DNA of 64,000 bases, taken from the IMG/VR virus record IMGVR_UViG_3300021493_000001. The stretch is one strand, 5' to 3'. Source of the stretch: a virus. Positions 3,113-58,749 of this stretch are shown here, in pieces. How positions within the stretch are numbered: position 1 is the first letter of the stretch; every line of letters starts with the position of its first letter. The notes below the pieces were generated by a model that was given only the letters and a program-made list of their open reading frames with translations, ran no database searches and was not told the DNA's origin. Position numbers and translations under genes: made by a program.

Positions 3113-4675
3113 TTGAGTGATTTAGAGGTGATTGAACTTAATTTTAACAGTAGAGGTTTAGCACCGTCTTTAAGAAAAATTTTTCAAAAGGACCCATTAA
3201 TTTTTCCTGAGAAAGTTCTGGGAGTTACTCTTTGGGATAAGCAGAAAGAAATTTTTAGAGCTATCTATGAGAATGAACGAGTTGCAGTGCCTGCGTGTAA
3301 TCATGCAGGCAAAACTCATACCGCTGCATGTCTAACCCTTGCATTTCTTTTTACATATTATCCTTCTAAAGTTATTACAACTTCAGCATTCAAAGAACAA
3401 GTTAAGGATGCATTATGGAGTGAAATCAGAACTAGAGTGAGATATTCAAGAATATCGTTAATGGAAGAAAAGCATGTAACAACTATGGGAATAAATTTAG
3501 GTCCTGATTGGTATGCTGTGGGATTAAGACCTCAAGACTCTTCTCAAGAGGCTTTTCAAGGAAGGCATAGTCCGAATATATTATTAATTCTGGATGAATC
3601 AAGTGGGGTAGGTGAGAATATTTGGGAATCGGCTGAAGGATTAATGACCTCTGCCAATTGTCATTGGCTTGCACTAGGCAATCCATTTGACCCACTTTCA
3701 CCATTTGGAGAAGCTTGTAATAGTGATGAATGGGTAACTATACATATTTCAGCTTATGATACTCCCAATGTTAAGGCAGGAAGAAATATTTATCCTCGGT
3801 TAATGCCTTGGGATTGGCCTGAGAAAAAGAAAAAGCAGTGGGGTGAAGATAGTGCAAGATACCAAATTAGAGTTTTAGGCCAATTTCCTGAAAGAGAAGA
3901 AGAAAAGTTAATTCCATATTCACTTGCAAAACAAGTATTTGAAAGAAAATATAATCGTTGCACTGATGAGACATTGGTAATTGGTCTTGACCCAGCAGGA
4001 TTAGGAAAAGATAAAACAGTTTGGGTTTTAAGACAAGGCTCATCCATTGTTACAATAAAATGGGTTTTGAATGCAACTGATGAGGCAATTGGAAGAAGAA
4101 CTTTAGAATTAGCAGAGACTTATAGAAGTGCTAACAAACCAACGATTATTAATATAGATGGTGGATGGGGAAAAGGGATATATGAATATCTCAGAAAACA
4201 TGGTAATCCTGAAAAAGTGAAGATTAACCTAGTTTTTTTATCTTCTAAACCAGAAAATGATGAAAATGAATATTATAATTTGAGAACTCAAGTTGGTTTT
4301 AGATTGAAAGAGGCTATAGAAAGAGGATTATGTTTATCTCCATCAGCTAGAATAGTAAAGGATGCTTGGCTATCTGATATAACTGCTATAAAAGTCATTG
4401 AAGACCCTAGAACTGGGAAAAGAAAGTTAGAGAATAAAAGAAAGCTGAAGAAGCGGTTAAAGCGTTCTCCTGATTTTTTAGATGCTACATTACTTAGCTT
4501 TGTTTCAAGTTATAGAACTCCTCCTGCTATGGTAACTGTTTCAGAATTTCAATATAAAGAAGCAAATAAAGAAGTGATTGATAATTCTATGTTTCCATCT
4601 ATGATGCACCAATTCAAGATTAAAAGAAGAAATCCAATATTCTTTTTCAGAAATAATATCAGGAGGTTCTCATGA
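3113..4675 (+). CDS. terL: terminase large subunit
   Basis: Walker A ACNHAGKT, Walker B LLILDE, coupling motif GNP, RNase H-like nuclease IGLDPAG and SPDFLDA. Confidence 0.95.
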   Translation: MSDLEVIELNFNSRGLAPSLRKIFQKDPLIFPEKVLGVTLWDKQKEIFRAIYENERVAVPACNHAGKTHTAACLTLAFLFTYYPSKVITTSAFKEQVKDALWSEIRTRVRYSRISLMEEKHVTTMGINLGPDWYAVGLRPQDSSQEAFQGRHSPNILLILDESSGVGENIWESAEGLMTSANCHWLALGNPFDPLSPFGEACNSDEWVTIHISAYDTPNVKAGRNIYPRLMPWDWPEKKKKQWGEDSARYQIRVLGQFPEREEEKLIPYSLAKQVFERKYNRCTDETLVIGLDPAGLGKDKTVWVLRQGSSIVTIKWVLNATDEAIGRRTLELAETYRSANKPTIINIDGGWGKGIYEYLRKHGNPEKVKINLVFLSSKPENDENEYYNLRTQVGFRLKEAIERGLCLSPSARIVKDAWLSDITAIKVIEDPRTGKRKLENKRKLKKRLKRSPDFLDATLLSFVSSYRTPPAMVTVSEFQYKEANKEVIDNSMFPSMMHQFKIKRRNPIFFFRNNIRRFS

Positions 4676-7382: not shown

Positions 7383-10300
7383 GTGCGTATAACTGAACTT
7401 CATTTAGAGCAATTTAAAAAAGAAGGGGTTGATTACGATATTAAACATGCCAAGACCAGATGGAGAGAATTGCTGGCGGACATTAGGTATCTTTTCAATA
7501 ATGCTTTACCAAGGATTTGGAAAGGCGAGAAATGGGGTGATTGGCAGGAAGAAGATTGTTTAAGATATGGAGGTAAGATTATAGATGCCCTTCGTTCTGT
7601 TTATTTTCCTTTGATACCACCCTCTAAAGATGACCCAAGATATAATACAAGCTACTGGAAGGCTTATCGTAAGGCTGAAAAGAAAGGTTATATCAAATCT
7701 AAACCACCTAAACTAGAAGAAGTATCTGAATGGGATAAGAAACGCAAAGAGATAATCAAAACCTCTTTAGAAGAAGCAGAAAGAAAAATAGATGGTCTTT
7801 ATTTAACTTATCCACATGGAGAGTTATTTTGGACTAAAGAAAAAACTTTGTTAGTGAAGACTAGAAAGTTTGATTTATCCAAGCCTCACTATCTAATTGA
7901 TGATGGCTTTTGCTATGGGATTATCTCGTTCAAAGAACCTAAAAGAATTACTAAAAAGCAGTTCTTTACAGAGGATTTAAAGAAAAAGCATCGCATCCTA
8001 GATACAGAAGCTTGGCAGTGGTGGAGAATGTCAAGAGACAATGCAGTTGAGCCTGAACTTTGGGCTTATGAGGTTAAAAAATTTGAACCGTTTGAAATAC
8101 CTGAAAGAGTGAAAATACCAAAGGGAACACAGGTTATAGTTGATGCAGATAACATTGAATTTGTAGGAAAGGATGAAGAACAACCTGCAAGGATTGATTG
8201 GCCTATAATGGCTACCAAGGAAGCAAAGACTGATTACATTAAATTCTATGGCACTAAAGGATATATAGAAGAAGAAAACAATGAACATAAATATCATACC
8301 TGTATTTTGTTATCCTTAAATGACACAAATATCTTATTGGATTATGGTGAGAGGCATCCTGAAGAAATAAAGGAAAGAATAGATGTGATATTGAACTCGC
8401 ATCGGCACATTGACCACATCTGTCCTGAAATATCAAGCTTTGCTTGTCCTTTATATATATCAAAAGAAACTTTGAATAGAGTGGATTTTTCTTTACCCGA
8501 AGATATAAGAATTTATGAAGCTAGAAAAGCATTTAGTATTGGTAATATAAAAATTATTACTTATCCAGTTTATCACTCCATCCGTGCTCCTATGCACATT
8601 TTCAAGATTGAGACAGATAACCTTGCAATTGGAGTAATGACTGATTTTTTAGCCTTTGAAGAAGTAGAAGATGAAGAGTTTTTCTATCCAAATCTAGACA
8701 TAGTCATAATAGACGGTAGTAGCATTACGAAAGATTTAAGAAGATGGAAGGAAGACCATAACTTAATATTTGGTCATAAAAGCGTAATTCACCAAATTGA
8801 AAGAATTAGAGATAGATGTGAAAAAAATCCAATAATAATCCTCACTCATATTGGGCGTGAAGGCATAGAGTGGGGAGACTTACAAATATTACAATATTTA
8901 CATGAAAGATTTGCTGGAATGCACATATATATTGCCAAAGATGGCAGTGTATTTGACTTAAAAACAAGGCGATTTACTGAGGCATTCAAAGGCGAGCAAA
9001 TATGCAAAGATATTGTTGCAAATCTTCCTTCTTTTACATGGATACCTGAATTTACAAGCATTACAGGCTCTACCTTATTTACAAAAGACCATGCACCAAG
9101 AGACTTGGATGTAATGTGCAAAGCAGAGGAGATAAATGGAAAGTGGTATATTCCTATAGATACTTCTCTTTTGCTTAAATTGCAAAGAGCCTATCAATAT
9201 GCAACAAAGAAAGTCTTAGGCAAGGCAATCAAGCCTGAGTTCCCACCTCCAGCATTGATTGGAGCTAATTGGAGTTCTATACCTGCTTATGATTTAAAGC
9301 TTGTGCCTAGAAAAAATCCAGAAGTAAGAAGGACAGGAGAAGAGGAGTTTGAAGAAAAGGTTTATGGAGTAGATTTTAAGGAAAAGTTAAGGTTACGCAC
9401 CAAATCCAAAGATATTGAAAAAATGGCTCAGCAATCCTTAGAAGAGGATAAAGTCAAACCACTTCGTTTCTTTATGCCTCTTAAACCAATACGAGTTCAA
9501 GGAAAGCATGGAGAAAGGAATACACCAGAAAGGCTTGTAGAGTTATTTGAGCCACAGCATTACCCAGTTTATAACTCGGTAAAGAGAGATGGATTCAGGG
9601 TGCAAATTCATGCAGACGGGGATAAAGTTGTAATTTATTCAGAAGATGGCAATGATATAACAAAGCAATTACCTACAATTGTTGATGCAGTTAAAAGACT
9701 TAAAGCAAAATCAGTTGTTTTAGATGCTGAAGTTGAGTTATGGGAGAATGGATATCATCATCCACGAGAAGCAGCCATTGCTAAAATTCATTCTAAAGCA
9801 ATAGATGATAAGGATTTGATTGCTAATTTATTTGATTGTATATATCTAAATGGCGAAGATTTGCATAAAGAGCCATTTGAAAAGAGATGGAAAGCATCAA
9901 ATTCTCTTGGCATCAAATATTCAAAAGAAACTAATTTAAACCCAGAAGAAAAACTTAATATTATTCCCCATATCTTATGCAAAACTCCAAAAGAATTGCT
10001 TAGAGAAACAGAACGCATGAGAAAGGTTAAATCAAGTGAAGGCTGTGTAGCTATTGCCCATAATGCAACCTATCCATTAGATGGCAAACCAGATGACAAT
10101 TCATTTTGTAAGTTTCACAATAATGTAGTTATAAGGGGAATAGTAATTGAACCTGTGCAGACTAAAGTAAGCACGGTATATAATTTATCCTTTGGCTGTT
10201 TAGCAGGTAAGCATGAAATATTAAAGAAAGACCAGACAGAAGTAGGTCCTTATGAAAAAGTTTTAACCATAGGAAGCACTTTTGCTGCACCTTATGTAAA

Positions 10301-48820: not shown

Positions 48821-49348
48821 TTATTCTCCTTTACACAATTTTTCTTTTAAAGCTTGATAATCTTCATCAGAAACTTCAATCTCTACACCATCAATGATTA
48901 TTGTATGCTTTTTAGGAATGGGGCGGGCATATTTCCATGACATAATGCTAAAACTGTTACCCTTTTTAAATTCATTTAGGCTATTATCATCTGAATATAC
49001 ACATATATAAGGGTAATCGCTACCATCAATATAACCTACATAAATTCTTTTTTCCCATTTATTCCCAGATTGACTGACTTCAATAAGCTCTCCAAATTTA
49101 AAGGCGTAACCTTCAAACATTTCATCAGTCCAACAATATTGTCCATCATCTTCTTCAATGTAGTAATAATTGTTCCAGACTTCTTTTATAGTAACAATCT
49201 GTCCGCAAAATTTTCTATTTGTCTTAGGAAATGTGAATGGAGTTCCAAGAAAGCTAATACTATTACATACCAATTTATTCCCTCTTAACATTGCCTCCCA
49301 CTGACGGACTCTTACTTTGTCTCCTTCTTTGTAACGCATTTTACTCAT
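48821..49348 (-). CDS. hypothetical protein (tandem SH3-like)
   Basis: YKEGDKVRVR and FKFGELIEVS. Confidence 0.6.
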   Translation of the reverse strand: MSKMRYKEGDKVRVRQWEAMLRGNKLVCNSISFLGTPFTFPKTNRKFCGQIVTIKEVWNNYYYIEEDDGQYCWTDEMFEGYAFKFGELIEVSQSGNKWEKRIYVGYIDGSDYPYICVYSDDNSLNEFKKGNSFSIMSWKYARPIPKKHTIIIDGVEIEVSDEDYQALKEKLCKGE

Positions 49349-50303
49349 CCTCCTCTTCTTCTCCTTGCCTTAATATTTCCTTCAATTGTCCTCTATGATG
49401 ACAATCCTCTAAATGAACCAAACGGCCATTTTCTTCAAACTTTAAATAAATCTCTTTGCCTTCTGTGTAATATTCACTTTGCCGAACTTTTGTAAATTGC
49501 AAAATTGGATATTCTTTCCGTTTATCTTCACCATCATACAGGATTTCAAAACCGTAAGCAGGCCGTTGGAGTGAGCTTTCCCTGCCATAAGGTTTTAACT
49601 TCCCGTATTCTTCTTTGGCTTGCCAAAATAAAAAGATTAGGTTTTTATGTCCTTCTTGTAGTTTGCGAATGAACTTGTTTACTCTGTCATACCTGCCTGT
49701 CAAATCCGCCCAGTCCCAGATGATTATGCTGTTTTTACTTATTGCAAGGGGTTTCATAAATGGGTCTGTAATAGGGATAAACCTAATCTTCCCTTGTTCT
49801 TCCCATTCAATCATTTGTTCTACATCAACTAACTTAGCAAACCTGTAAGCAATATTTTCTTTGCATTCAGAATAGTAATAATGAACAGGCAATCCTTTTT
49901 GCAGGTAAAAAAGAGCTATGTTTATAGCAAAGTAACTCTTACCCTGCCCATAACTCGCATAAATTAAGATGATGTCTGATGGAAACAACAAACATTTATA
50001 TCCAATGCCAAATGGTAAGGGTATCTTTAATTCAGGTTTTAACATATCTTGGAAGGAAGTGGGTGTGGTATGCTTGATGATGCGATAATCCCTTGAATTG
50101 ACTTTCTCTACTTTGCCAAACTCAACAGCCTTGTTCAATATCTTATATGCCGTTGAATATTGGTTGCTACTTAACCCAAGAGTTTGCATCATCTCTTTTA
50201 TAGTAAAAACAAATTCACCGTCATAGTCTTGGAAACTGTCTAAATACTCCAAGACCAACTTTAAAACAGAACCCTTCTGCGCCGTTCCAGACTTAATGGA
50301 CAT
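49341..50303 (-). CDS. wHTH plus RecA/DnaB-like ATPase (probable replicative helicase)
   Basis: ASYGQGKS Walker A, IIIWD Walker B, WQA and KVR. Confidence 0.7.
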   Translation of the reverse strand: MSIKSGTAQKGSVLKLVLEYLDSFQDYDGEFVFTIKEMMQTLGLSSNQYSTAYKILNKAVEFGKVEKVNSRDYRIIKHTTPTSFQDMLKPELKIPLPFGIGYKCLLFPSDIILIYASYGQGKSYFAINIALFYLQKGLPVHYYYSECKENIAYRFAKLVDVEQMIEWEEQGKIRFIPITDPFMKPLAISKNSIIIWDWADLTGRYDRVNKFIRKLQEGHKNLIFLFWQAKEEYGKLKPYGRESSLQRPAYGFEILYDGEDKRKEYPILQFTKVRQSEYYTEGKEIYLKFEENGRLVHLEDCHHRGQLKEILRQGEEEEDE

Positions 50304-51341
50304 TTATCCTTCCTGTCTGGTTGAGGAGACGGATTGCTTCCTAGCTACTCTCTCGGCAAGAAGTTTGATATTAATTGCTCCAATTATATCAGCATCTTCC
50401 TTATGCCCACAGCCAATACAATGAAACAATTCTCCTTGCCGATTCGCTTTATCAGTTAATCCACATAACGGGCAAGTAATGGAAGTATTACATGGATTAA
50501 CCTTTATTACCCCAAAACCTTTGAGGCTTGAAAGCTCCATCAATTTCTTTGCCAACCATTTATATGGCCAATTATTATTATCTCTCCTAAATTTTTTAGT
50601 TCTATTTTTCTTGCCTTTAAACAATAAATCCTCAACAGCAAAATCAGTATCAGGATAAAGCTTTATTAGCTCTTTAGCATAGTGATTAAGCCATTGTTTA
50701 GTAGGTGATAAACAATGCTTATAAGTCCTCCATTTCGTTCTTATTTTTAAGCCTTTCAATTCTTTACCTAAAACTTTACCATCAGAAGTTACAATCGGTT
50801 TATTTAAACCTACATCAATGCCGATAATATTTTTATTCTCTTGTTTAATTTCGGGAAACTCCACAAAGCATTGCATATAATAATTGCCATTGATTTTCAA
50901 TAATTTAAAGCTCCTTCTTAATTTTCCTTTATTAACTGCTTCGTTAAAGATTTTAGTCCGTTTACAAGGCAGAATTATCCTTTTTCTTGGTGTAGTAGAA
51001 ATTACTTTAAACCAAATATTGAACTCCTTTGTTTTAAATTCAGGAATAATATAGGCACTAAACTGATTTAAATCTATTTCCTTGCCTTTGAAATATGGCC
51101 TTTCCTTTTGTTTGGTTTTTTTTGCACCTTTAACTATTTGCCAAGCTTTTTGAGAAGCATCCCTAACAAGTCTTCCACCCCTGCAATATTCTTTAGGAGG
51201 ATATGAACCTTTTATGTCTTTAAATGTCCAAAACAGCTTTATTTTGTGATTTACTTGGTCTTGCCAAAAAGCAATAAGTTTATTTAGTTCCTTGATTTTA
51301 TTTTTATTTGCATAAATTTTTAGTTTGTAAGATTTAATCAT
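50304..51341 (-). mobile_element. tnpB: TnpB RNA-guided endonuclease (IS200/IS605/IS607-type), no transposase
   Basis: RuvC-I GIDVG, RuvC-II VEDL, zinc finger CPLCG...CIGCG, RuvC-III DADIIGAINI. Confidence 0.92.
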
Positions 51342-52852: not shown

Positions 52853-53008
52853 TTATTCTGTTTCATCTTTCTCAATCTCGTCAATTATTCTTTTAATATC
52901 GGCTAGGGTATCTGCTGAAATAGATACGGTCTCATTCTTTGTAGCTGTATATCTTTTATTTTTTAAAAAGATTTTATAGCCTTTATACTCTTCTATAAAA
53001 GTTTTCAT
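52853..53008 (-). CDS. small hypothetical protein (not in ORF track)
   Basis: MKTFIEEYKGYKIF...; translated by hand. Confidence 0.45.
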   Translation of the reverse strand: MKTFIEEYKGYKIFLKNKRYTATKNETVSISADTLADIKRIIDEIEKDETE

Positions 53009-53011
53009 CCT

Positions 53012-53377
53012 TCAAAACTCCTCATATTTACTTTCAATCAGTAATATTTCTTCATAAGTTTCCATTGCAACTTTAAAATAATCTTCTATTTTTTGAATGT
53101 TCTCATATCTTTGTTTAAAATTACTTATTATTCTTGTAAGGTCTTCAAAGCTAAATGGTGTTGACTTTGAACTATGTTTAAATTTTATTTTAACAAGACC
53201 AAGAGAAGTTGGGATTATTTGTGTTTCCACATTTAGAGTTATCACATCCCATATTTTATCTTGCATTTCTTCAGCAAATATATCTGCATTGGCTTTTATC
53301 CATTGTTCTCTTGCATTATAGTTACCTACATCATCAATCAAGTTCTTTGTTATTTTCATTTTAAAACTCCTTACCAC
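53012..53377 (-). CDS. hypothetical protein
   Basis: ORF track. Confidence 0.55.
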   Translation of the reverse strand: MVRSFKMKITKNLIDDVGNYNAREQWIKANADIFAEEMQDKIWDVITLNVETQIIPTSLGLVKIKFKHSSKSTPFSFEDLTRIISNFKQRYENIQKIEDYFKVAMETYEEILLIESKYEEF

Positions 53378-53589
53378 TTTTCTTATCTATATGTTTAAAA
53401 CAAATTTGAGCACAAATACAAGAAACTAGCCCAACTAATAATGCAACAATAAACAATATCAACTTTTCCATTTAAAACTCCTCCATATTTTGTTTCTGAG
53501 CAAGGTTTAATGGCTTAGACATACTTTTATATGTCTTTAAGGTTAAAACTGCCTCAGCGTTGAAATATGTGCGTCTGAGAGCGGATGGG

Positions 53590-54147
53590 CTATTCATTGC
53601 ATACCCAGCTTTTAATCGTTCTCTCGTTGCCCAAAAAATTTATTTTTATATTATTCAATGCCCATTGATTAACAGCTATTGCTCCTAAAGAAGCAACAAG
53701 GCAAATAAAAGCCTTTGCACCACGCCAAGTGCAAATATCAAATCCGTCTTGTGCTTTTTCAGGTTTAAATTCTTTATCCCAAACTACCTCAAATGTTCTT
53801 TCTGCCGAATAGGCTATATGAATGGCATGAGGGCAAGATATTAAGGCTCGGCTTTCAGCATTATCAAAACAATCCAAGCAAAGGTCAAATTGGTCTAATG
53901 CTGGTTTTGTATCAATTTTAAGTTTTTGAGCTTGAGTAATTATTCCATATTGGTCATATAAATTGAGCTGTAAGGCTTCACTTTTATACAATCCTATTTG
54001 AGAAGGTCTAAACCATTGATTAGGAATATTCCTAGTTTCAACTTTATCATAATCAAATAGATAGTATCCCCAATCTGGATGAGCACCAACCAAAATATAA
54101 GCTAAATTGCTACCCAATGCACCACAGCCAAAAATAGCTATTTTCAT
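53590..54147 (-). CDS. ThiF/MoeB/E1-like adenylyltransferase
   Basis: GCGALG, DYDKVETRNIPNQ, K and DCFDNAESR; candidate catalytic Cys in FDICT; start moved to ATG 54147 behind GAGGT. Confidence 0.9.
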   Translation of the reverse strand: MKIAIFGCGALGSNLAYILVGAHPDWGYYLFDYDKVETRNIPNQWFRPSQIGLYKSEALQLNLYDQYGIITQAQKLKIDTKPALDQFDLCLDCFDNAESRALISCPHAIHIAYSAERTFEVVWDKEFKPEKAQDGFDICTWRGAKAFICLVASLGAIAVNQWALNNIKINFLGNERTIKSWVCNE

Positions 54148-54149
54148 TT

Positions 54150-54581
54150 TTACCTCACTACATAATCTAAATGAAAGCACATTTTCAATCCCTTACAAAG
54201 TGGCTCTTGAAATTCGGGAGAAGGCAAAATTACATTTTTTAAATAGTCTCCAAAAATATCATACACACCAGTAAATATAGAACCTTCATACTTAAAAACA
54301 AAATCTCCAGATTTAGGTTGATATACAGTAAAGAGTGAATGATGAGGTGCAAATGCTAATTCAAGTGCTTCATAAAATTCATTGTCTATATTACTCAGAC
54401 TAACTCCTATTTCAGACGAATGAGTATGAATTACAATCCAGTCTTGGGGATAGAGTTGATGCAGTTTCCACCATTCTAAAAAATCAAATTTTACAGAGGC
54501 ACTATTGCCAATTTTAATTTGGACAAAATTCCTAAACGCCCCTTCAGTGCCTAAAATTACACCTACTTCTTTAAATGCCAT
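54150..54581 (-). CDS. JAB/MPN+ metallopeptidase
   Basis: N-terminal Glu (FKEVG) and JAMM motif HTH-x8-SNID. Confidence 0.75.
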   Translation of the reverse strand: MAFKEVGVILGTEGAFRNFVQIKIGNSASVKFDFLEWWKLHQLYPQDWIVIHTHSSEIGVSLSNIDNEFYEALELAFAPHHSLFTVYQPKSGDFVFKYEGSIFTGVYDIFGDYLKNVILPSPEFQEPLCKGLKMCFHLDYVVR

Positions 54582-54807
54582 ATTTATTCCTCATTCTATA
54601 TTGTAATTTATTAAACCTTTTCATATAATTATCCCAACATTTAAGCCATAACTTTTGCAAGCCCAACCATTGACAATCAATAATACCCAAAGATAAAATA
54701 CAAGGTAAATCTTCTAAAACTATAACCATTGTAGATACTAAAAACCAGAAAGCTAATTGTAAATCAAGATGAATAATGAAATTTTTAGTTTCTATTATCC
54801 GTTTCAT
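54571..54807 (-). CDS. small hypothetical protein within the Ubl operon
   Basis: fills the gap exactly between flanking genes. Confidence 0.4.
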   Translation of the reverse strand: MKRIIETKNFIIHLDLQLAFWFLVSTMVIVLEDLPCILSLGIIDCQWLGLQKLWLKCWDNYMKRFNKLQYRMRNKYGI

Positions 54808-55683
54808 TTAAAATCGTGTTTTATAAATTAAATCCTTCTCAATAAATTCTTGAGCTGTTAATACCATGCTTTTAAGAGATAAAATATTGTCCATGCCTTC
54901 CACACAGAATCCTGCTTCTTTTATCTGGAAGTTATTAGGATTGATTAAGCTGTTAAATTTTTCTCCTTGCACAGACCAGATAATTTCTAAGTTATTTCCA
55001 CGCTGTTTCAGCTCAATTAAATGGCCATTTACTTCTTCTAATGCAGATTTAACCCGTCCTACCAAAGTTTTCTTAAATTCTTCTTCTTTTTGGGCTTTTA
55101 GCAATTCTTGTTGAGTTTTATATTCTAATACATACAGAAAATATAAATACCTTAACTCAGGAGTTAATCCTTTTATATCTATAATGGGCTTATCTATATC
55201 TAAATATTGTTTAGTTATAAATTTATCTTTTAATTTAATTAAAAGCGGATTGCTTGGATATTCCCAGCCGTAAAAAAACATTACCTTGGCTGGGGTTGCA
55301 ATTGGAATAATTGCATAAGACTGCCAGTCTAAATCTGTGCGTAATAAATGAAGTGGCTGGGAAGAATTAGTTGTTATATCCCATTTCGTTTTAAGCAAAT
55401 TGAATGAATAAGGCACAAATTCATTATGAAACCCATATCCTGTAAATGCTCTATTTTGATAAATAAGCTTTACATCCAAGACTGAAGCTTGAGTTATTTC
55501 TACATTGCCTTTACACATTTCAATCCAATACCAGCCATCATTCCAATTTCTTGCTCGTAAATATTTAGAAATATCTAGGGTATAAATATCGCTGTAAGCT
55601 ACTCCATTTAATACAGGTGCTAGAAACTTCATTTTTTCTTCATAAATTGACCTGATAGTTTTAAGAATTTTACTATATTGCAT
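54808..55683 (-). CDS. uncharacterised protein with C-terminal AGFCVEGMD motif (E2-like candidate)
   Basis: coupled to the vWA gene; G-x-C-hydrophobic motif reminiscent of the E2 GxICL. Confidence 0.55.
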   Translation of the reverse strand: MQYSKILKTIRSIYEEKMKFLAPVLNGVAYSDIYTLDISKYLRARNWNDGWYWIEMCKGNVEITQASVLDVKLIYQNRAFTGYGFHNEFVPYSFNLLKTKWDITTNSSQPLHLLRTDLDWQSYAIIPIATPAKVMFFYGWEYPSNPLLIKLKDKFITKQYLDIDKPIIDIKGLTPELRYLYFLYVLEYKTQQELLKAQKEEEFKKTLVGRVKSALEEVNGHLIELKQRGNNLEIIWSVQGEKFNSLINPNNFQIKEAGFCVEGMDNILSLKSMVLTAQEFIEKDLIYKTRF

Positions 55684-57226
55684 AATACCACTCTGGCAGT
55701 GTTAATAAGGGTGTGTTCATGATTTCTTCTATAATAGCCATTTGCCCTTTCATAGCAACCTTAATAGCTTCCATGACTAAAGCTGAATTGGTAACCGTTT
55801 CATAACTTAAAACAGATACAGGAATTCCATTATCTTTATAAGCTATTTCTAATTGATTACCTCGTCCAAAACCAGGATAATCACACCAACAATCTATAAT
55901 TACACAAGCTTTGGGCTTATCTTTATAGTCTTTAATTTTCTGTGTAAGATTCCCCATATTATGACCTTCTACCAGTTCTGTGATAAATATATCCACATCC
56001 GCCCCAAACTTTCTTGCTTCAGGATATAAGGCAAAACAATCAGTAGCCCCATACGGTCTAATTCCAAATAAGATTTGTGCAAAAGCATCTTCTACAAATT
56101 CATTAGGCAGAGGTAAAACCTTACCATAAACATTAAAAACGCCCCATCTAAAATTTTCTTCAGGATTAGATACCATTTCTGCAACTAACGGTGCAACCTT
56201 TTTAGCAACCCTAATCGCATCTTCCATACTTCCAGATATATCAATATGAAGGAATACTTTACCTATTTCTGCCTTTTCAAAATCTTCTTTATGAACCTTA
56301 GCTCTAGCTTTCTTCATTGAAGACTTCAGTTTAGAAGAAATCTTTTTAACTCTAGTAACCCTATCTACAGCAGTGCGAGATTGTGAAATCTTTTTTTCAT
56401 ATAATTTTTTAATTTCTTTATAAGCCCATAACCCTTTATCTTCAAATAACTTACTTAAAATTAACACTTCATCAGGGTTAGCCACATATAACAAAGCAAT
56501 TGCAATTTCAGGTGTTACTTCAGGAATTGCACCCAAGGCTCTTTGAACCTTGATTTTCTCTTTAATAATTCTTTCTGCAATTTCTTTGGTAGTTAACCCA
56601 TCAAAATTTAAGCCTTCTTCAATTTTTACAGGGGTAGTTTTTTGTTTCCATCTAAGGATGGATGCAGTTTCAGGAGAAGGTGCAAGGTGCATTAAACGGT
56701 AAAGGTTTATATAAGTTTTAGATAATCCCTTATTCTTAATGCCTCTGATATAAAACGGGTTTTTCTCTCTATATTTAATATATTTTTTTACAGCAGTATT
56801 CAAAACAACAGGCCAATGCCTTGCATAAGGAAGGCCATTCGTCCCCCATTTAAGACACCCTAATTGTTTAACTCTAAGCACAAGTCTAGGTTCAAGCTCT
56901 TGAATTGCAGCAGCACTTACTATTCTAAAATTAGGCTTCCTATATTTTGAATTAGGTGAAAAAGGCAGTCCATCTGCAATAGACAAGGCATTTGAATAGG
57001 TTGTAAAGACTTTAAGGTCTTTTGATTGACTGTTTTTGATAATCCAAGAAGTGAAATGAGCTAGAAACACTGAGTCATTTTGAGATATATTATAAAACTG
57101 CTTGAGAATATTTAGAGCTTTATCTTGGTTTAACTTACCTTTCTGCCATAGGTGTTGGCAACCCTGAATAAGTAAGTTATATGCATTTAACCTTTCTTCT
57201 GGTAAAAGAGAAGGTAGCTCCTTCAT
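55673..57226 (-). CDS. TROVE/Ro60-like helical protein with C-terminal vWA domain
   Basis: MIDAS IDISGSM, GATD and IFITE; long helical N-terminus (DSVFLAHF...KDLKVF); start at ATG 57226 behind GGAGG. Confidence 0.7.
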   Translation of the reverse strand: MKELPSLLPEERLNAYNLLIQGCQHLWQKGKLNQDKALNILKQFYNISQNDSVFLAHFTSWIIKNSQSKDLKVFTTYSNALSIADGLPFSPNSKYRKPNFRIVSAAAIQELEPRLVLRVKQLGCLKWGTNGLPYARHWPVVLNTAVKKYIKYREKNPFYIRGIKNKGLSKTYINLYRLMHLAPSPETASILRWKQKTTPVKIEEGLNFDGLTTKEIAERIIKEKIKVQRALGAIPEVTPEIAIALLYVANPDEVLILSKLFEDKGLWAYKEIKKLYEKKISQSRTAVDRVTRVKKISSKLKSSMKKARAKVHKEDFEKAEIGKVFLHIDISGSMEDAIRVAKKVAPLVAEMVSNPEENFRWGVFNVYGKVLPLPNEFVEDAFAQILFGIRPYGATDCFALYPEARKFGADVDIFITELVEGHNMGNLTQKIKDYKDKPKACVIIDCWCDYPGFGRGNQLEIAYKDNGIPVSVLSYETVTNSALVMEAIKVAMKGQMAIIEEIMNTPLLTLPEWYYAI

Positions 57227-57276
57227 TTGAGCCTCCAAAATTTTATATTTAAGCTCCTAAGTTGCAGGAATTGTTT

Positions 57277-57352
57277 TGGCCAGCTAAACGGGACTTGAAC
57301 CCGTAACCATCAGCTTTTGGAGCTGATGCCTATCCAATTGGGCGATTAGCTT
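57277..57352 (-). tRNA. atypical 76-nt tRNA-like RNA (Trp-like body, anticodon register ambiguous CCA/CAA)
   Basis: acceptor AAGCTAA/TTAGCTG, G73 and encoded CCA; D loop AATTGG; anticodon stem TCAGC/GCTGA with loop TCCAAAA; T arm ACGGG-TTCAAGT-CCCGT. Confidence 0.8.
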
Positions 57353-57391
57353 GTAAATTCCTGCATTAGAGGAGCTTGTTGTTATCAAAAC

Positions 57392-57482
57392 GACTCCTAA
57401 GTGAGAAGAACTCCTAGAGTGGGCTAGGCCCCATTCCTGATTCCACATATCAGGTGCTTGTAAGTTCTTCTCAAGAGGAGTC
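57392..57482 (-). ncRNA. 91-nt three-way-junction structure
   Basis: GACTCCT/AGGAGTC and TGAGAAGAACT/AGTTCTTCTCA closing stems; inner hairpins CCTGAT/ATCAGG and CCTAG/CTAGG. Confidence 0.55.
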
Positions 57483-57713
57483 ATACAATCCCGCCTCTGC
57501 TTTAGGTAAAATATAAATTGTATCTGTATCCGTCATTTTTCTTACCGTATAAATGTAGCCTTCAGTATCAGCCTCAATATTAACTCCTGTTTCTTCCAAA
57601 ATAACAGGGGCACATGCTTTAAGTATTTCAGTTTCAGGTGTATCCATTGTAATGCCCATTTGTTGAGCATCCAAAGGAACTTCCTTACTTTCTAAAAGGA
57701 CTTTGATTTCCAT
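57471..57713 (-). CDS. ubiquitin-like (beta-grasp) protein with PKAEAG plus LYDSS tail
   Basis: 80 aa; beta-grasp-like pattern ending TIYILPKAEAG; heads the E1/JAB operon. Confidence 0.65.
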   Translation of the reverse strand: MEIKVLLESKEVPLDAQQMGITMDTPETEILKACAPVILEETGVNIEADTEGYIYTVRKMTDTDTIYILPKAEAGLYDSS

Positions 57714-57739
57714 CTCTTTCCCTCCGTTTAATTATCTAT

Positions 57740-57768
57740 ATAATAAAACAAGTAATTTATTTTGTCAA
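57740..57768 (-). promoter_or_regulatory. strong sigma70-type promoter of the Ubl operon
   Basis: TTGACA (57768-63), N17, TATTAT (57745-40), then GGAGG and ATG 57713. Confidence 0.75.
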
Positions 57769-58307
57769 GTCTTGGGTCTTATTTTTTTAAGAATAATTTT
57801 TTTTCCTTCTTGAGTGGTTCTAATGCCTGTAATAAAGTAATTGGCCTTTCTTAACTGTTTCCACCATTTTGCTGCAATTTCACTGTCTGCTACAGTTATT
57901 GAATGAACCTTGTTGCTATTATAGGCACTTATAACTCGTAACAAAGCATTATATTCCATATCATTAGGATTAGGTAGCTTACAATTTTTTATTTTAAATT
58001 TGTCATAAGGGTCTGGTTGAGGTTCTTCTGGATGTTCGTGGTGGTATTTAATTCTTACTTTGTTTATGACTTGTTGTGGAGATAGTATTTCTTTTTTTAA
58101 TTTATCAAGTAGAAAAAAACAGAAAGCTGCAAAACAATTTTTTTTAGCTACCAATTTACAAAAATTTTCCACTGCTTCAATAAATTCTAAATCGGTGTAG
58201 TCATCGCTGATAGTAATCAGCCTTATCATTTCTTTCTCATGAACCACTACCTCGTTTTTCTTGGCAATATCCATAAAGATTTCAAGCCTACTGTCTAGAT
58301 TGTGCAT
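57765..58307 (-). CDS. hypothetical protein
   Basis: 180-aa ORF. Confidence 0.6.
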   Translation of the reverse strand: MHNLDSRLEIFMDIAKKNEVVVHEKEMIRLITISDDYTDLEFIEAVENFCKLVAKKNCFAAFCFFLLDKLKKEILSPQQVINKVRIKYHHEHPEEPQPDPYDKFKIKNCKLPNPNDMEYNALLRVISAYNSNKVHSITVADSEIAAKWWKQLRKANYFITGIRTTQEGKKIILKKIRPKT

Positions 58308-58749
58308 TATTTTTGTCTCCTTGGTTGAAAGTTATACACCCATTCTTTCTTAACCAAATTAATGTTTTAGCACGGGCATTTGCTTCAAGCTCTTCTATAA
58401 AATAACATCCTTTAAGAGCTATTGCTTCATAATAATAATGGAAGCCATCTTCATTCTTTTCTATTCTTAAAAATCTCAATTCTGGCAAATAAAATGGCAA
58501 CCACTCACCTAATTCTGAGTTAGTATAAGCTTTAATATAATCTTGCAAATGATGGTATTCAAATATAAAAAATTCTTCATATTGTTTTGGTTTGTAAAAA
58601 TACATTTTATCCATAGTGAAAAATAAATCATAGAACTCGCTATCTTTCCTTAAACACCAAAACCAGCCTGGTTCATTTTGAGGAAACCCTAACTCCTTTA
58701 ATTTCTTACTTAATTCCAAATTTGCTACTTCTTTTTTTGCCCAGTCCAT
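58288..58749 (-). CDS. conserved phage hypothetical protein
   Basis: LELSKKLKELGFPQ...AYTNSELGEWLP...EANARAK pattern. Confidence 0.65.
   Translation of the reverse strand: MDWAKKEVANLELSKKLKELGFPQNEPGWFWCLRKDSEFYDLFFTMDKMYFYKPKQYEEFFIFEYHHLQDYIKAYTNSELGEWLPFYLPELRFLRIEKNEDGFHYYYEAIALKGCYFIEELEANARAKTLIWLRKNGCITFNQGDKNNAQSRQ

What the first reader, a model, noticed from the sequence alone, without database searches (positions are those of the whole stretch)
53590..57768. Phage-encoded ubiquitin-like conjugation operon (Ubl, RNAs, TROVE/vWA, E2 candidate, JAB, E1)
Seen: behind its own near-consensus promoter, one tightly coupled unit encodes a small beta-grasp-like protein ending PKAEAG(LYDSS), two structured RNAs, a helical+vWA protein, a Cys-motif protein, a JAMM peptidase and a ThiF/E1 enzyme. 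No ThiS/MoaD pathway genes (thiG, moaE) are nearby. Known: E1+E2+JAB+Ubl operons (Bil, CBASS Cap2/Cap3) conjugate proteins in bacterial antiviral defence. Inference: here the phage carries the machinery, with a different partner set. It could tag host or competing-phage proteins, reverse host Ubl defence, or modify the RNP or tRNA. I do not know of a characterised system with this composition.
Basis: partly seen in the sequence, partly recalled or inferred. Interest (0 to 1): 0.93.

Follow-up and report, generated by a model that had tools for sequence, protein, structure and literature searches.

The report
Phage Ro60-Y RNA operon with ubiquitin-like module
A phage from hydrothermal-vent metagenomes carries one operon that joins a Ro60-type RNA-binding ring protein and its tRNA-mimicking small RNAs to a tiny ubiquitin-like protein, its activating enzyme, a trimming protease and a cysteine protein, a link between RNA surveillance and protein tagging that I found in no paper I could search.

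Summary
On the minus strand, behind an 11/12 sigma-70-like promoter, lie an 80-aa protein, two structured RNAs, a 521-aa protein, a 291-aa Cys protein, a JAMM peptidase and a minimal ThiF/E1.

The 521-aa protein is a Ro60/Rsr homologue by predicted fold. The RNAs are Y-RNA-like: a bipartite terminal stem, and on RNA2 a tRNA-like tip. They form a covarying family found in every related locus.

The 80-aa protein keeps an invariant C-terminal Gly followed by 0-5 variable residues. In 17 of the 98 Ro-family hits it is fused to the N-terminus of Ro60. No other fusion partner was found. Ubl, RNA, Ro60, the Cys protein, JAB and E1 recur together at 40-45% identity in independent phage contigs.

The E2 call for the 291-aa protein is weak: a low-confidence model and UBC/RWD/UEV-like matches at Z 4-6. 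The beta-grasp fold was not tested. The 78-aa ORF is a strain-specific insertion.

My best reading is a Ubl activation and conjugation module wired to a phage Ro60-Y RNA particle. Its target is unknown. I found no paper describing it, but this scan has already noted the same cassette on other DNA (35 notes, at least 26 genomes).

The parts
57740..57768 (-). Sigma-70-like promoter TTGACA-17-TATTAT in front of the operon
   Evidence: 11 of 12 matches, the joint-best in 53000-58400. This is a consensus match only; function is not shown.
57471..57713 (-). Ubl candidate, 80 aa. The predicted mature part ends at Gly75 (57713..57489). The tail LYDSS is encoded by the 5' stem of RNA1.
   Evidence: Gly75 is invariant in 8 homologues, with tails of 0-5 residues. 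It is fused to Ro60 in 17 of 98 family hits, and all 33 longer proteins found are such fusions. E1-Ubl complex: weak support. The fold was not tested.
57392..57482 (-). RNA1: Y-RNA-like hairpin. Outer stem GACUCCU/AGGAGUC, internal loop, inner stem GAGAAGAAC/GUUCUUCUC, motif UUACAAGC. No tRNA-like tip.
   Evidence: The stems are conserved in L001/L003, with a compensatory C-G to U-A change in the outer stem. The apical part varies.
57251..57377 (-). RNA2: Y-RNA-like, with a bipartite terminal stem carrying a complete tRNA-like cloverleaf (57277..57352) at its tip
   Evidence: Rfam tRNA 48 bits. The flanks pair at -27 kcal/mol, against -2 to -12 for ordinary phage tRNAs. 29 of 33 pairs show compensatory changes in 8 sequences. 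Model R1 scores 137 bits here and at least 83 bits in every independent locus. The 'anticodon' differs among 93-96% relatives.
55673..57238 (-). Ro60/Rsr-like protein (TROVE-type helical ring plus vWA). The probable true start is the ATG at 57226, behind GGAGG.
   Evidence: AF2 mean pLDDT 86. Foldseek top 12 hits are all Ro60/TROVE structures over the full length, E 1.7e-8 to 2.7e-5. The profile hits Xenopus Ro60 vWA at E 3.8e-4. MIDAS residues D333, S335, S337 and T399 are invariant.
54808..55683 (-). 291-aa conserved Cys protein (p291), the candidate E2-like component. N-terminal beta-rich part, long helix, C-terminal alpha/beta domain with AGxCxxGxD.
   Evidence: The family has 670 clusters. 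C260 is conserved in at least 90% and G258 is invariant across 39 diverse members. VIA matches for residues 203-285: FANCL UBC-RWD Z 5.8, Tsg101 UEV, Cap2 E2 domain, Ubc9, RWDs. The model is poor (pLDDT 62). No Pfam or PDB sequence match.
54571..54807 (-). 78-aa ORF in a window-specific ~225-bp insertion; not a conserved part of the system
   Evidence: Absent in L001, L002 and L003, where p291 abuts JAB. No homologue in any locus.
54150..54581 (-). JAB/JAMM metallopeptidase, 143 aa
   Evidence: E5, H52, H54, S63 and D66 are invariant in 6 homologues. The motif is found in every locus that reaches the E1 gene. Sub-threshold profile hits to Rpn11/AMSH over the motif.
53590..54180 (-). Minimal E1-like adenylyltransferase (ThiF family). 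The probable start is the ATG at 54147, giving 185 aa.
   Evidence: Pfam ThiF 1.2e-11; NCBIfam ThiF 6.6e-15; PADLOC Cap2 E1 part. PDB profile hits MoeB, MccB, UBA5, SAE2, Uba4 and ThiF. Invariant GxGxxG, R39, D92/D95/N96 and Cys139.

Best explanation
The operon encodes a phage Ro60-Y RNA ribonucleoprotein that is genetically wired to a small ubiquitin-like (Ubl) activation and processing module.

Shown by computation:
- A Ro60-fold protein with an intact vWA MIDAS site.
- Two Y-RNA-like RNAs of a covarying family.
- A small protein with an invariant C-terminal Gly.
- A JAMM peptidase and a ThiF-type E1 with catalytic residues conserved, including an invariant Cys.
- A conserved Cys protein.
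- All of these kept together across distant phage contigs.

Inferred mechanism:
1. The Ubl is made as a precursor, either with a short tail or as an N-terminal fusion to Ro60.
2. JAB cuts after the conserved Gly.
3. E1 adenylates that Gly and probably forms a thioester on Cys139.
4. The Ubl passes to Cys260 of the 291-aa E2/RWD-like protein.
5. It is then conjugated to a target at or near the Ro60-Y RNA particle: Ro60 itself, a host RNA-decay or repair factor recruited by the Y RNA, or a host defence protein.

The likely biological role is protection or repair of RNA, or counter-defence, during infection.
For: Ro60 identity: AF2 pLDDT 86 and full-length Foldseek matches to phage phiLo, Xenopus, human and Deinococcus Ro60. 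The profile also hits the Ro60 vWA domain.

RNAs: z = -4.1. 29 of 33 pairs carry compensatory changes. Covariance-model hits of at least 83 bits occur in each independent locus, including untrained ones.

Ubl behaviour: invariant Gly75 with tails of 0, 1, 2 or 5 residues. There are 17 Ubl-Ro60 fusions among 98 Ro-family hits, joined at IPNSTAG|linker. All 33 longer proteins carrying the domain are such fusions.

Enzymes: catalytic motifs of E1 and JAB are invariant.

Co-occurrence: Ubl, Ro60, p291, JAB and E1 are all present in L006, L007/8, L009 and L010 at 40-45% Ro identity, despite HNH and other insertions. More distant p291 relatives still sit beside Ro-like, JAB or ThiF genes.

E1-Ubl complex: weak support. 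The score was 0.57, against 0.00 for the best of 3 controls. That mark was reached by 58 of 80 solved complexes and 2 of 110 mismatched pairs. At 0.60 or under it was reached by only 7 of those 80, and by both mismatches that passed. The runs agree in at least 86% of contacts, and the partner's pLDDT is at least 88. My own alignments were used, and a pass may reflect likeness to solved E1-Ubl complexes.

p291: the C-terminal domain matches the UBC/RWD/UEV fold class, and the conserved Cys sits just after the last strand.

Biological context from papers: phage phiLo Ro60 binds two upstream Y-like RNAs and host PNPase (PMC12135203). The Ro60-like gp130 of phage Bas63 counters the Ppl defence system (PMC11482910).
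Against: - The beta-grasp fold of the 80-aa protein was not tested. It has no Pfam, PDB-profile or Atlas link.
- The p291 model is poor (pLDDT 62, pTM 0.34). Its fold matches are Z 4-5.8, a range the tool flags as common for unrelated folds. Foldseek found nothing significant. p291 hits no E2, RWD or Prok-E2 Pfam model.
- The Ubl ends in Ala-Gly, not Gly-Gly.
- JAB trimming of a tailed Ubl also occurs in sulfur-carrier pathways, so it does not separate conjugation from sulfur transfer.
- No target, E3 or effector is identifiable.
- JAB and E1 were not seen in L004/5 or (E1 only) L012, where the fetched stretch or contig ends too early to tell.
Confidence: 0.55

Rival explanations
1. Sulfur-carrier reading. 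E1 adenylates the Ubl, which becomes a thiocarboxylate. Its sulfur is then used to thiolate RNA: the tRNA-like Y RNA, or host or phage tRNAs held by Ro60. This would resemble Urm1/Uba4 or Thermus TtuB/TtuC. JAB only matures the carrier, and the Cys protein relays persulfide or is a new thiolation factor.
For: - The best E1 matches are MoeB, ThiF, Uba4 and MccB-type adenylyltransferases.
- The operon centres on tRNA-shaped RNAs.
- Tail trimming by JAB is known in sulfur-carrier pathways (QbsD/QbsE, Mec/CysO; from my own knowledge).
- Conserved cysteines on E1 and p291 would suit a persulfide relay.
Against: - No PP-loop ATPase (TtuA/Ncs6 type), ThiG, MoaE, rhodanese or cysteine desulfurase lies in the operon or its surroundings.
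- The E1 is a bare 185-aa adenylation domain.
- The p291 C-terminal domain looks UBC/RWD-like, not like a thiolation enzyme.
- An exclusive fusion to Ro60, which is not an enzyme, is hard to explain on this reading.
Confidence: 0.17
2. Non-covalent regulator reading. The small protein is a Ubl-type ligand or chaperone of Ro60, for example binding the vWA MIDAS site through its invariant acidic residue, as the UBL domains of Rsa4 and Ytm1 bind the Rea1 MIDAS domain. JAB releases it from the fusion, and E1 caps or recycles it. No third-party target is tagged.
For: - Ro60 is the only fusion partner found.
- The Ro60 MIDAS residues are invariant.
- E40 and D24 of the Ubl are invariant.
- Rea1 MIDAS appears among the vWA fold matches (rank 47). 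The UBL-MIDAS precedent itself comes from my own knowledge.
Against: - A conserved ATP-dependent E1 with an invariant Cys, plus a conserved Cys protein, would be superfluous for simple binding.
- The strictly conserved C-terminal Gly points to C-terminal chemistry.
Confidence: 0.1
3. Ubl-to-RNA reading. The E1-made Ubl-adenylate is chemically like an aminoacyl-adenylate. It would be transferred to the 3' end of the tRNA-like Y RNA, giving a Ubl-RNA ester held on Ro60.
For: - RNA2 carries a full cloverleaf with a 7-bp acceptor-like stem, followed in the window group by G-CCA.
- M. smegmatis YrlA is cut by RNase P and receives CCA (PMC4201824).
Against: - The encoded CCA is not conserved in the distant loci.
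- The acceptor end is buried in a roughly 19-bp extension stem, which would have to be processed first.
- I know of no precedent, and no tRNA-synthetase-like editing or transfer domain was seen.
Confidence: 0.05
4. Chance neighbours. An ordinary phage Ro60-Y RNA locus happens to lie beside an unrelated Ubl/E1/JAB cassette.
For: Phage genomes are mosaics, and insertions (HNH genes, the 78-aa ORF) do occur inside the cluster.
Against: - The same set recurs in independent contigs at 40-45% identity, despite rearrangement.
- There are Ubl-Ro60 gene fusions.
- Distant p291 relatives keep the same neighbours.
Confidence: 0.03

Closest known systems
Bacterial and phage Ro60 (Rsr)-Y RNA particles: Salmonella rsr-yrlBA-rtcBA, M. 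smegmatis YrlA/YrlB, Deinococcus Rsr-Yrn1-PNPase (PMC4201824); Thermus phage phiLo Ro60 with Yrl1/Yrl2 (PMC12135203; PDB 9KOP, 9L5Y)
   Same: - Ro60 fold with a vWA domain.
- One to three small RNAs encoded beside it on the same strand.
- RNA ends paired in a long stem with an internal loop.
- A tRNA-like module on one RNA.
- A shorter second RNA, like YrlB.
- Carried by a phage.
   Different: - No Pfam TROVE sequence match.
- No Rfam Y_RNA or YrlA match, and no GNCGAA/CGAA motif. UUACAWGC and ACUUR are conserved instead.
- The tRNA-like module is a non-permuted cloverleaf joined through its acceptor stem, unlike permuted YrlA.
- The locus always carries Ubl, E1, JAB and the Cys protein, which no described Ro60 locus does.
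- No RtcB/RtcA in this operon.
Bacterial Ubl-conjugation operons with Ubl, E1, E2 and JAB: Bil (BilABCD), type II CBASS Cap2/Cap3, and the operon types of Iyer et al. 2006 (PMC1779556)
   Same: - A small protein with a C-terminal Gly.
- A ThiF-type E1 with a conserved Cys.
- A JAMM peptidase.
- A Cys protein whose C-terminal domain resembles the UBC/RWD fold.
- Tightly coupled genes.
   Different: - Encoded by a phage, not by a host defence island.
- The E1 is a bare 185-aa adenylation domain, not fused to an E2.
- The E2 candidate matches no known E2 family by sequence and has a large extra N-terminal part.
- The Ubl ends in AG.
- The set is coupled to Ro60 and Y RNAs, and the Ubl is often fused to Ro60.
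E2-less dual-function Ubl systems: Thermus TtuB/TtuC/TtuA with a JAMM peptidase, archaeal SAMP/UbaA/HvJAMM1, and yeast Urm1/Uba4 (PMC5349211, PMC2948915, PMC4443979)
   Same: - A minimal MoeB/ThiF-like E1.
- A Ubl with a C-terminal Gly.
- A JAMM peptidase.
- A functional link to tRNA-shaped RNA.
   Different: - No PP-loop thiolation enzyme and no rhodanese domain.
- A conserved extra Cys protein.
- Fusion of the Ubl to Ro60.

Membership tests
Ro60/Rsr (TROVE + vWA) | Helical-repeat ring followed by a vWA domain, matching solved Ro60 structures over the full length | tested here: met
   AF2 pLDDT 86. Foldseek ranks 1-13 are all Ro60/TROVE entries (9kop, 9l5y, 9nf8, 1yvp, 2i91, 2nvo), E 1.7e-8 to 2.7e-5, 535-603 aligned columns.
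Ro60/Rsr (TROVE + vWA) | Intact MIDAS motif (DxSxS ... T ... D) in the vWA domain | tested here: met
   D333, S335, S337 and T399 are invariant, and D421 is nearly invariant, in 40 sequences.
Ro60/Rsr (TROVE + vWA) | Sequence match to Pfam TROVE (PF05731) | tested here: not met
   No Pfam family at E up to 0.1, and none precomputed for 98 relatives. Only the vWA part reaches Ro60 by profile (E 3.8e-4).
Ro60/Rsr (TROVE + vWA) | Binds Y RNA and misfolded RNA | not testable with these tools
   Needs EMSA or RIP.
Y RNA / YrlA | 5' and 3' ends paired in a long stem with an internal loop; encoded next to Ro60 on the same strand | tested here: met
Y RNA / YrlA | tRNA-like module | tested here: met
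   Rfam tRNA 48 bits. However, it is non-permuted and joined by the acceptor stem, unlike YrlA as described in PMC4201824.
Y RNA / YrlA | Ro-binding motif GNCGAAN0-1G / CGAA | tested here: not met
   No CGAA anywhere in 57251..57482 (sequence).
Y RNA / YrlA | Match to an Rfam Y-RNA-type covariance model | tested here: not met
   Only tRNA matched, at gathering score and at E up to 10.
Ubl-E1-E2-JAB conjugation operons (Bil, CBASS type II) | Small modifier with an exposed or exposable C-terminal Gly | tested here: met
   Gly75 invariant; tails of 0-5 residues, or fusion.
Ubl-E1-E2-JAB conjugation operons (Bil, CBASS type II) | Beta-grasp fold of the modifier | not tested
The only indirect hint is the partner pLDDT of 88 in the complex run.
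Ubl-E1-E2-JAB conjugation operons (Bil, CBASS type II) | E1 adenylation domain with nucleotide-binding residues and a conserved Cys | tested here: met
Ubl-E1-E2-JAB conjugation operons (Bil, CBASS type II) | E2: UBC fold with a catalytic Cys | tested here: inconclusive
   The Cys is conserved. UBC/RWD/UEV-class matches reach only Z 4-5.8 on a pLDDT-62 model. Foldseek was not significant. No E2 Pfam or PADLOC hit.
Ubl-E1-E2-JAB conjugation operons (Bil, CBASS type II) | JAMM peptidase with E...HxH...S..D | tested here: met
Sulfur-carrier Ubl pathways (ThiS/MoaD/TtuB/Urm1) | Sulfur-using partner enzyme (ThiG, MoaE, TtuA/Ncs6) or a rhodanese domain in the neighbourhood | tested here: not met
   None among the operon proteins or 20 neighbouring ORFs. 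The E1 is 185 aa with no extra domain.

The most novel reading that the evidence does not exclude
The cassette is a new class of system in which a ubiquitin-like protein is directed by an RNA particle. Ro60 and its tRNA-mimic Y RNA select the substrate, which could be a damaged or foreign RNA-protein complex or the RNA itself. E1, the Cys protein and JAB then write and erase a Ubl mark on that substrate. This might include a Ubl ester on the tRNA-like 3' end. It would be the first RNP-guided, or RNA-directed, Ubl modification pathway.
Probability: 0.12. Interest if true: 0.95.

Novelty: new variant of a known kind. Interest (0 to 1): 0.8.

Why it matters
Ro60-Y RNA particles are conserved from bacteria to humans, where Ro60 is a major autoantigen, yet their bacterial and phage roles are still poorly defined. 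Bacterial ubiquitin-like cascades have only recently been tied to phage defence.

A conserved operon, reinforced by a recurrent Ubl-Ro60 gene fusion, that links the two suggests that RNA surveillance and Ubl chemistry act on a common substrate during infection. It offers a compact set of five proteins and two RNAs that could be reconstituted in vitro.

It would also give Ro60 biology a new, testable partner. And it would show phages, not only hosts, using Ubl machinery.

Tried and rejected
Sequence-family searches:
- Pfam, PHROGs, NCBIfam and PADLOC found no family for the Ubl, Ro, p291 or p78 proteins. For JAB they gave only a sub-threshold PADLOC hit (PDC-M16B, E 0.0065).
- Rfam found no Y_RNA or YrlA match, only tRNA.
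- INPHARED phages gave no DNA match and no tblastn match to the Ro protein.
- The PDB profile search found nothing for the Ubl or p291, and only sub-threshold Rpn11/AMSH hits for JAB.

Structure-based searches:
- ESM Atlas by features found nothing for the Ubl or p291.
- Atlas by shape for p291 gave only TM scores up to 0.26 (normalised by the query), which is uninformative.
- Foldseek against PDB for p291 gave no hit at E up to 0.001. The weak top rows were Csm1 and Knl1 RWD-like domains.

Genome searches:
- No whole genome is held for the window.
- The genome-contig scan returned only three short MAG contigs, so I could not test the earlier notes' claim of bacterial chromosomal copies.

Expression:
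- No RNA holder is listed among the sequencing runs.

The ARPP-1 lead:
- A 322-aa neighbour of P0013 carries Pfam ARPP-1.
- None of the 13 or 39 p291 relatives scanned hit ARPP-1. The meaning of that family stays unresolved.

Literature:
- Burroughs & Aravind 2016 (PMC5062991), which treats TROVE and Band-7 RNA-repair systems, is not held. I could not check whether it mentions this linkage.

Rejected readings:
- RNA2 as an ordinary tRNA-Leu. It has no long variable arm, its anticodon loop changes with indels among 93-96% relatives, and it has a 19-bp flanking stem.
- The 78-aa ORF as an E2. It is absent from close relatives.

Full report
**1. What is there**

The window is a tailed-virus contig. 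It carries a large terminase, portal, tape measure, RecT, exonuclease and a DnaD-like loader, at about 34% G+C. No whole genome is held for it.

Three IMG/VR contigs are 93-96% identical across the region (L001-L003). Near-identical DNA sits in runs labelled hydrothermal-vent and sediment metagenomes. Three runs hold at least 86% of the sampled words, and one of them may be the source.

The finding lies on the minus strand. It begins with TTGACA-17-TATTAT at 57768..57740, which matches 11 of 12 positions, the joint-best score in the region (a + strand site at 54670-54699 also reaches 11/12). The genes then follow in this order:

| Element | Coordinates | Note |
|---|---|---|
| 80-aa ORF | 57713..57471 | |
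| Non-coding stretch | 57470..57239 | 232 nt |
| 521-aa ORF | 57238..55673 | Better start is ATG 57226, behind GGAGG |
| 291-aa ORF (p291) | 55683..54808 | |
| 78-aa ORF | 54807..54571 | |
| 143-aa ORF | 54581..54150 | |
| ThiF ORF | 54180..53590 | Probable start ATG 54147 |

The genes overlap or abut.

**2. The large protein is a Ro60 homologue**

No sequence library names it. It does have about 100 relatives at 40-50% identity, with an invariant MIDAS motif.

A profile of the family hits the vWA domain of Xenopus Ro60 (E 3.8e-4). The AF2 model has mean pLDDT 86. It aligns over its full length with every solved Ro60/TROVE structure, and these fill the top of the Foldseek list: phage phiLo 9KOP/9L5Y, human, Xenopus and Deinococcus Rsr, at E 1.7e-8 to 2.7e-5. 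Isolated vWA domains only appear below them.

**3. The RNAs are Y-RNA-like and form a real family**

The intergenic stretch folds far better than shuffles (z = -4.1) into two units of the same design.

RNA1 (57482..57392) has these parts:
- outer stem GACUCCU/AGGAGUC
- internal loop
- inner stem GAGAAGAAC/GUUCUUCUC
- a variable tip

RNA2 (57377..57251) has these parts:
- outer stem AGCUCCU/AGGAGCU
- internal loop
- inner stem GCAGGAAUU/AAUUCCUGC
- a complete tRNA-like cloverleaf at the tip (Rfam tRNA 48 bits)

The tip is not a decoding tRNA:
- ARAGORN calls it Leu(CAA) here, Tyr(GUA) in L001 and unassignable in L003.
- The anticodon loop carries indels among these 93-96% relatives.
- Leu and Tyr tRNAs in bacteria need a long variable arm, which is absent here (my own knowledge).

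Across all fetched loci, the tRNA-like elements next to the cassette have flanks that pair at -17.5 to -30 kcal/mol. Ordinary tRNAs of the same phage arrays give -2 to -12.

Eight such elements align with 33 consensus pairs, and 29 of these carry compensatory double changes. The conserved unpaired motifs are UUACAWGC and ACUUR. A covariance model built from them (R1) finds further copies it was not trained on:
- L007 11448-11582, 83 bits
- L006 9463-9606, 78 bits
- L001 5719-5832, 62 bits

Ordinary tRNAs score 25-42 bits.

Compared with published Y RNAs, the stem-loop-stem design, the position beside Ro60 and the pairing of a long and a short RNA are the same (PMC4201824, PMC12135203). Three things differ:
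- The CGAA motif is missing.
- No Rfam Y-RNA model matches.
- The tRNA-like module is not permuted.

**4. The small protein behaves as a Ubl precursor tied to Ro60**

Homologues lie beside the Ro gene in every independent locus. Gly75 is invariant. What follows it varies:

| Locus | Residues after the conserved Gly |
|---|---|
| L007 | none |
| L001, L003 | L |
| L009 | V |
| L010 | I |
| L004 | II |
| window | LYDSS |

The window's longer tail arises because a one-base difference removes the stop used in L001/L003. Translation then runs into the 5' stem of RNA1.

In 17 of the 98 Ro-family hits the same domain is fused to the N-terminus of Ro60. The junction is ...IPNSTAG | short linker | Ro60. 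A search for any longer protein carrying the domain returned 33 proteins. All are about 600-635 aa Ubl-Ro60 fusions, apart from one truncated fragment.

This resembles ubiquitin-ribosomal-protein fusions that a peptidase must cut. It argues for a direct functional tie between the Ubl and Ro60.

The beta-grasp fold itself was not tested. The two structure jobs went to Ro60 and p291, and sequence and Atlas searches were blank.

**5. E1 and JAB**

The E1 is a bare adenylation domain of about 185 aa:
- Pfam ThiF 1.2e-11
- NCBIfam ThiF 6.6e-15
- The E1 half of Cap2 models in PADLOC
- PDB profile hits to MoeB, MccB, UBA5, SAE2, Uba4 and ThiF

GxGxxG, R39, D92/D95/N96 and a Cys in D-I-C (Cys139) are invariant in six homologues.

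The 143-aa protein keeps E5, H52-x-H54, S63 and D66 invariant. A protein with this JAMM motif lies just upstream of the E1 gene in L006 and L007/8, and near it in L009 and L010.

An E1 + Ubl(1-75) complex prediction gave weak support:
- Score 0.57, against 0.00 for the best of 3 controls.
- That mark was reached by 58 of 80 solved complexes and 2 of 110 mismatches.
- At 0.60 or under it was reached by only 7 of those 80, and by both passing mismatches.
- The runs agree in at least 86% of contacts.
- The partner's pLDDT is at least 88.

I used my own alignments. A pass may also reflect memory of solved E1-Ubl complexes.

**6. The Cys protein (p291)**

p291 has a large family: 670 clusters at E up to 1e-3. 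It has no Pfam or PDB sequence relative.

G258 is invariant. C260 and D265 are at least 90% conserved in 39 very diverse members, within the motif AGxCxSGxD. In the closer set, KGxTPE, GR, W236, N244 and a C-terminal TR are also invariant.

The AF2 model is poor overall (pLDDT 62) but reaches about 80 over residues 175-285. That region forms a long helix, a four-stranded meander, the Cys loop and a helix.

An exhaustive structural comparison put UBC-superfold domains on top for residues 203-285:
- FANCL UBC-RWD, Z 5.8
- Tsg101 UEV
- The E2 domain of Cap2
- BRISC UEV
- GCN2 RWD
- Ubc9
- Several kinetochore RWDs

About a quarter of the 50 rows shown belong to this fold class. These Z values lie in the range the tool flags as unreliable. 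Foldseek found nothing significant. I therefore call p291 an E2/RWD-like candidate, not an E2.

**7. Co-occurrence**

In contigs whose Ro protein is only 40-45% identical, the full set recurs: Ubl, Y-like RNA, Ro60, p291, JAB and E1. This holds for L006, L007/8, L009 and L010. HNH endonucleases, Band-7 genes or small ORFs are inserted between members.

Two loci are incomplete:
- L004/5 shows Ubl, RNA, Ro60 and p291, but the fetched stretch ends 1.2 kb after p291.
- L012 shows Ro60, p291 and JAB before its contig ends.

Much more distant p291 relatives still keep the same neighbours: a Ro-like protein (L016), a JAB (L015) or a ThiF gene (P0259 contig).

The 78-aa ORF is the exception. It sits in a ~225-bp insertion absent from L001-L003 and has no homologue elsewhere.

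**8. How it most likely works**

Shown:
- The parts exist.
- Their catalytic motifs are conserved.
- They are linked, both by gene order and by gene fusion.

Inferred, in order:
1. JAB exposes Gly75.
2. E1 adenylates it and may form a Cys139 thioester.
3. p291 Cys260 accepts the Ubl.
4. The Ubl is attached to a target at the Ro60-Y RNA particle.

The phage setting points to RNA protection, RNA repair or counter-defence. So do the neighbours in relatives: Band-7, RNA ligase, and RlaP next to the distant P0098. Published work agrees: phiLo Ro60 damps host PNPase (PMC12135203), and the Ro60-like gp130 of Bas63 counters Ppl (PMC11482910).

The rivals are as follows:
- A sulfur-carrier role for RNA thiolation. 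No thiolation enzyme, rhodanese, ThiG or MoaE is nearby.
- A non-covalent Ubl-MIDAS regulator.
- Ubl transfer to the tRNA-like RNA.
- Chance adjacency, which the synteny and fusions argue against.

**9. Novelty**

Each component is of a known kind. The combination is not described in any paper I could search.

The Asgard-virus preprint lists a Ro60 and three ThiF-like genes in Nidhogg viruses, but as separate items. I could not read Burroughs & Aravind 2016, which treats TROVE and Band-7 RNA-repair systems.

This scan has already reported the same cassette on other DNA: 35 notes in at least 26 genomes. Those notes are unchecked, and one is marked 'part of it fell'. My verdict rests on the tests above.

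What this window adds is a compact ~4.2-kb version in a ~61-64 kb phage. It shows the RNA stem overlapping the Ubl tail, and its close relatives let the tRNA-mimic be told apart from a true tRNA.

Noticed in passing
window 54571-54807 (-): A 78-aa ORF with one hydrophobic stretch sits in a ~225-bp insertion between p291 and JAB. The insertion is absent from three 93-96% identical relatives. It also carries a strong promoter-like site on the + strand (54670-54699, 11/12).
   Followed up: partly
window 57471-57490 versus L001 5610-5640: A one-base difference removes the TAA stop used in L001/L003. The Ubl ORF therefore reads on into the 5' stem of RNA1 (tail LYDSS instead of L). The stem keeps pairing through a compensatory change (GACUCCU/AGGAGUC versus GACUUCU/AGAAGUC).
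   Followed up: yes
L001 5719-5832: The close relative L001 has a third Y-like RNA copy with a shorter tRNA-like tip (R1 62 bits). The window and L003 lack it.
   Followed up: partly
L006 5108-6337; L009 6185-6991: A Band-7/SPFH gene lies directly upstream of the Ro60-like gene in two distant loci. SPFH and TROVE modules have both been proposed as RNA-repair scaffolds (abstract of Burroughs & Aravind 2016, recalled from memory; paper not held).
   Followed up: no
L004 6256-6810; L006 12004-12600; L009 12228-12812; P0013 contig: HNH or NUMOD4 homing-endonuclease genes are repeatedly inserted between members of the cassette, yet the cassette stays complete.
   Followed up: no
L011 157-7630: The most distant Ro-like relative (P0098, 26% identity) is followed by an RlaP nucleotidyltransferase, an NAD-dependent DNA-ligase-like protein and a PARP-domain protein, with no ThiF in the 9 kb seen. 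This may be a different Ro60 partner set.
   Followed up: no
P0013 contig (no DNA held), gene at 8747-9715: A 322-aa protein with Pfam ARPP-1 (PF20208) follows the Ro gene in this locus, which also has a ThiF gene. p291 relatives do not hit ARPP-1, so its relation to the cassette is unclear.
   Followed up: partly
window 3113-4675 (+); P0060: The large terminase's best match in GenBank phages is a virus assigned to Methanosarcinales (32% identity). One Ro-family member is labelled as from a Methanofastidiosum MAG. However, the window has bacterial-type RecT and DnaD-like genes and a sigma-70-like promoter. The host is unknown.
   Followed up: no
window 49341-51341 (-): A transposase-like gene (PHROG 506/12300) and an adjacent 320-aa ORF of no known family lie 2 kb downstream of the operon, inside the phage.
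   Followed up: no
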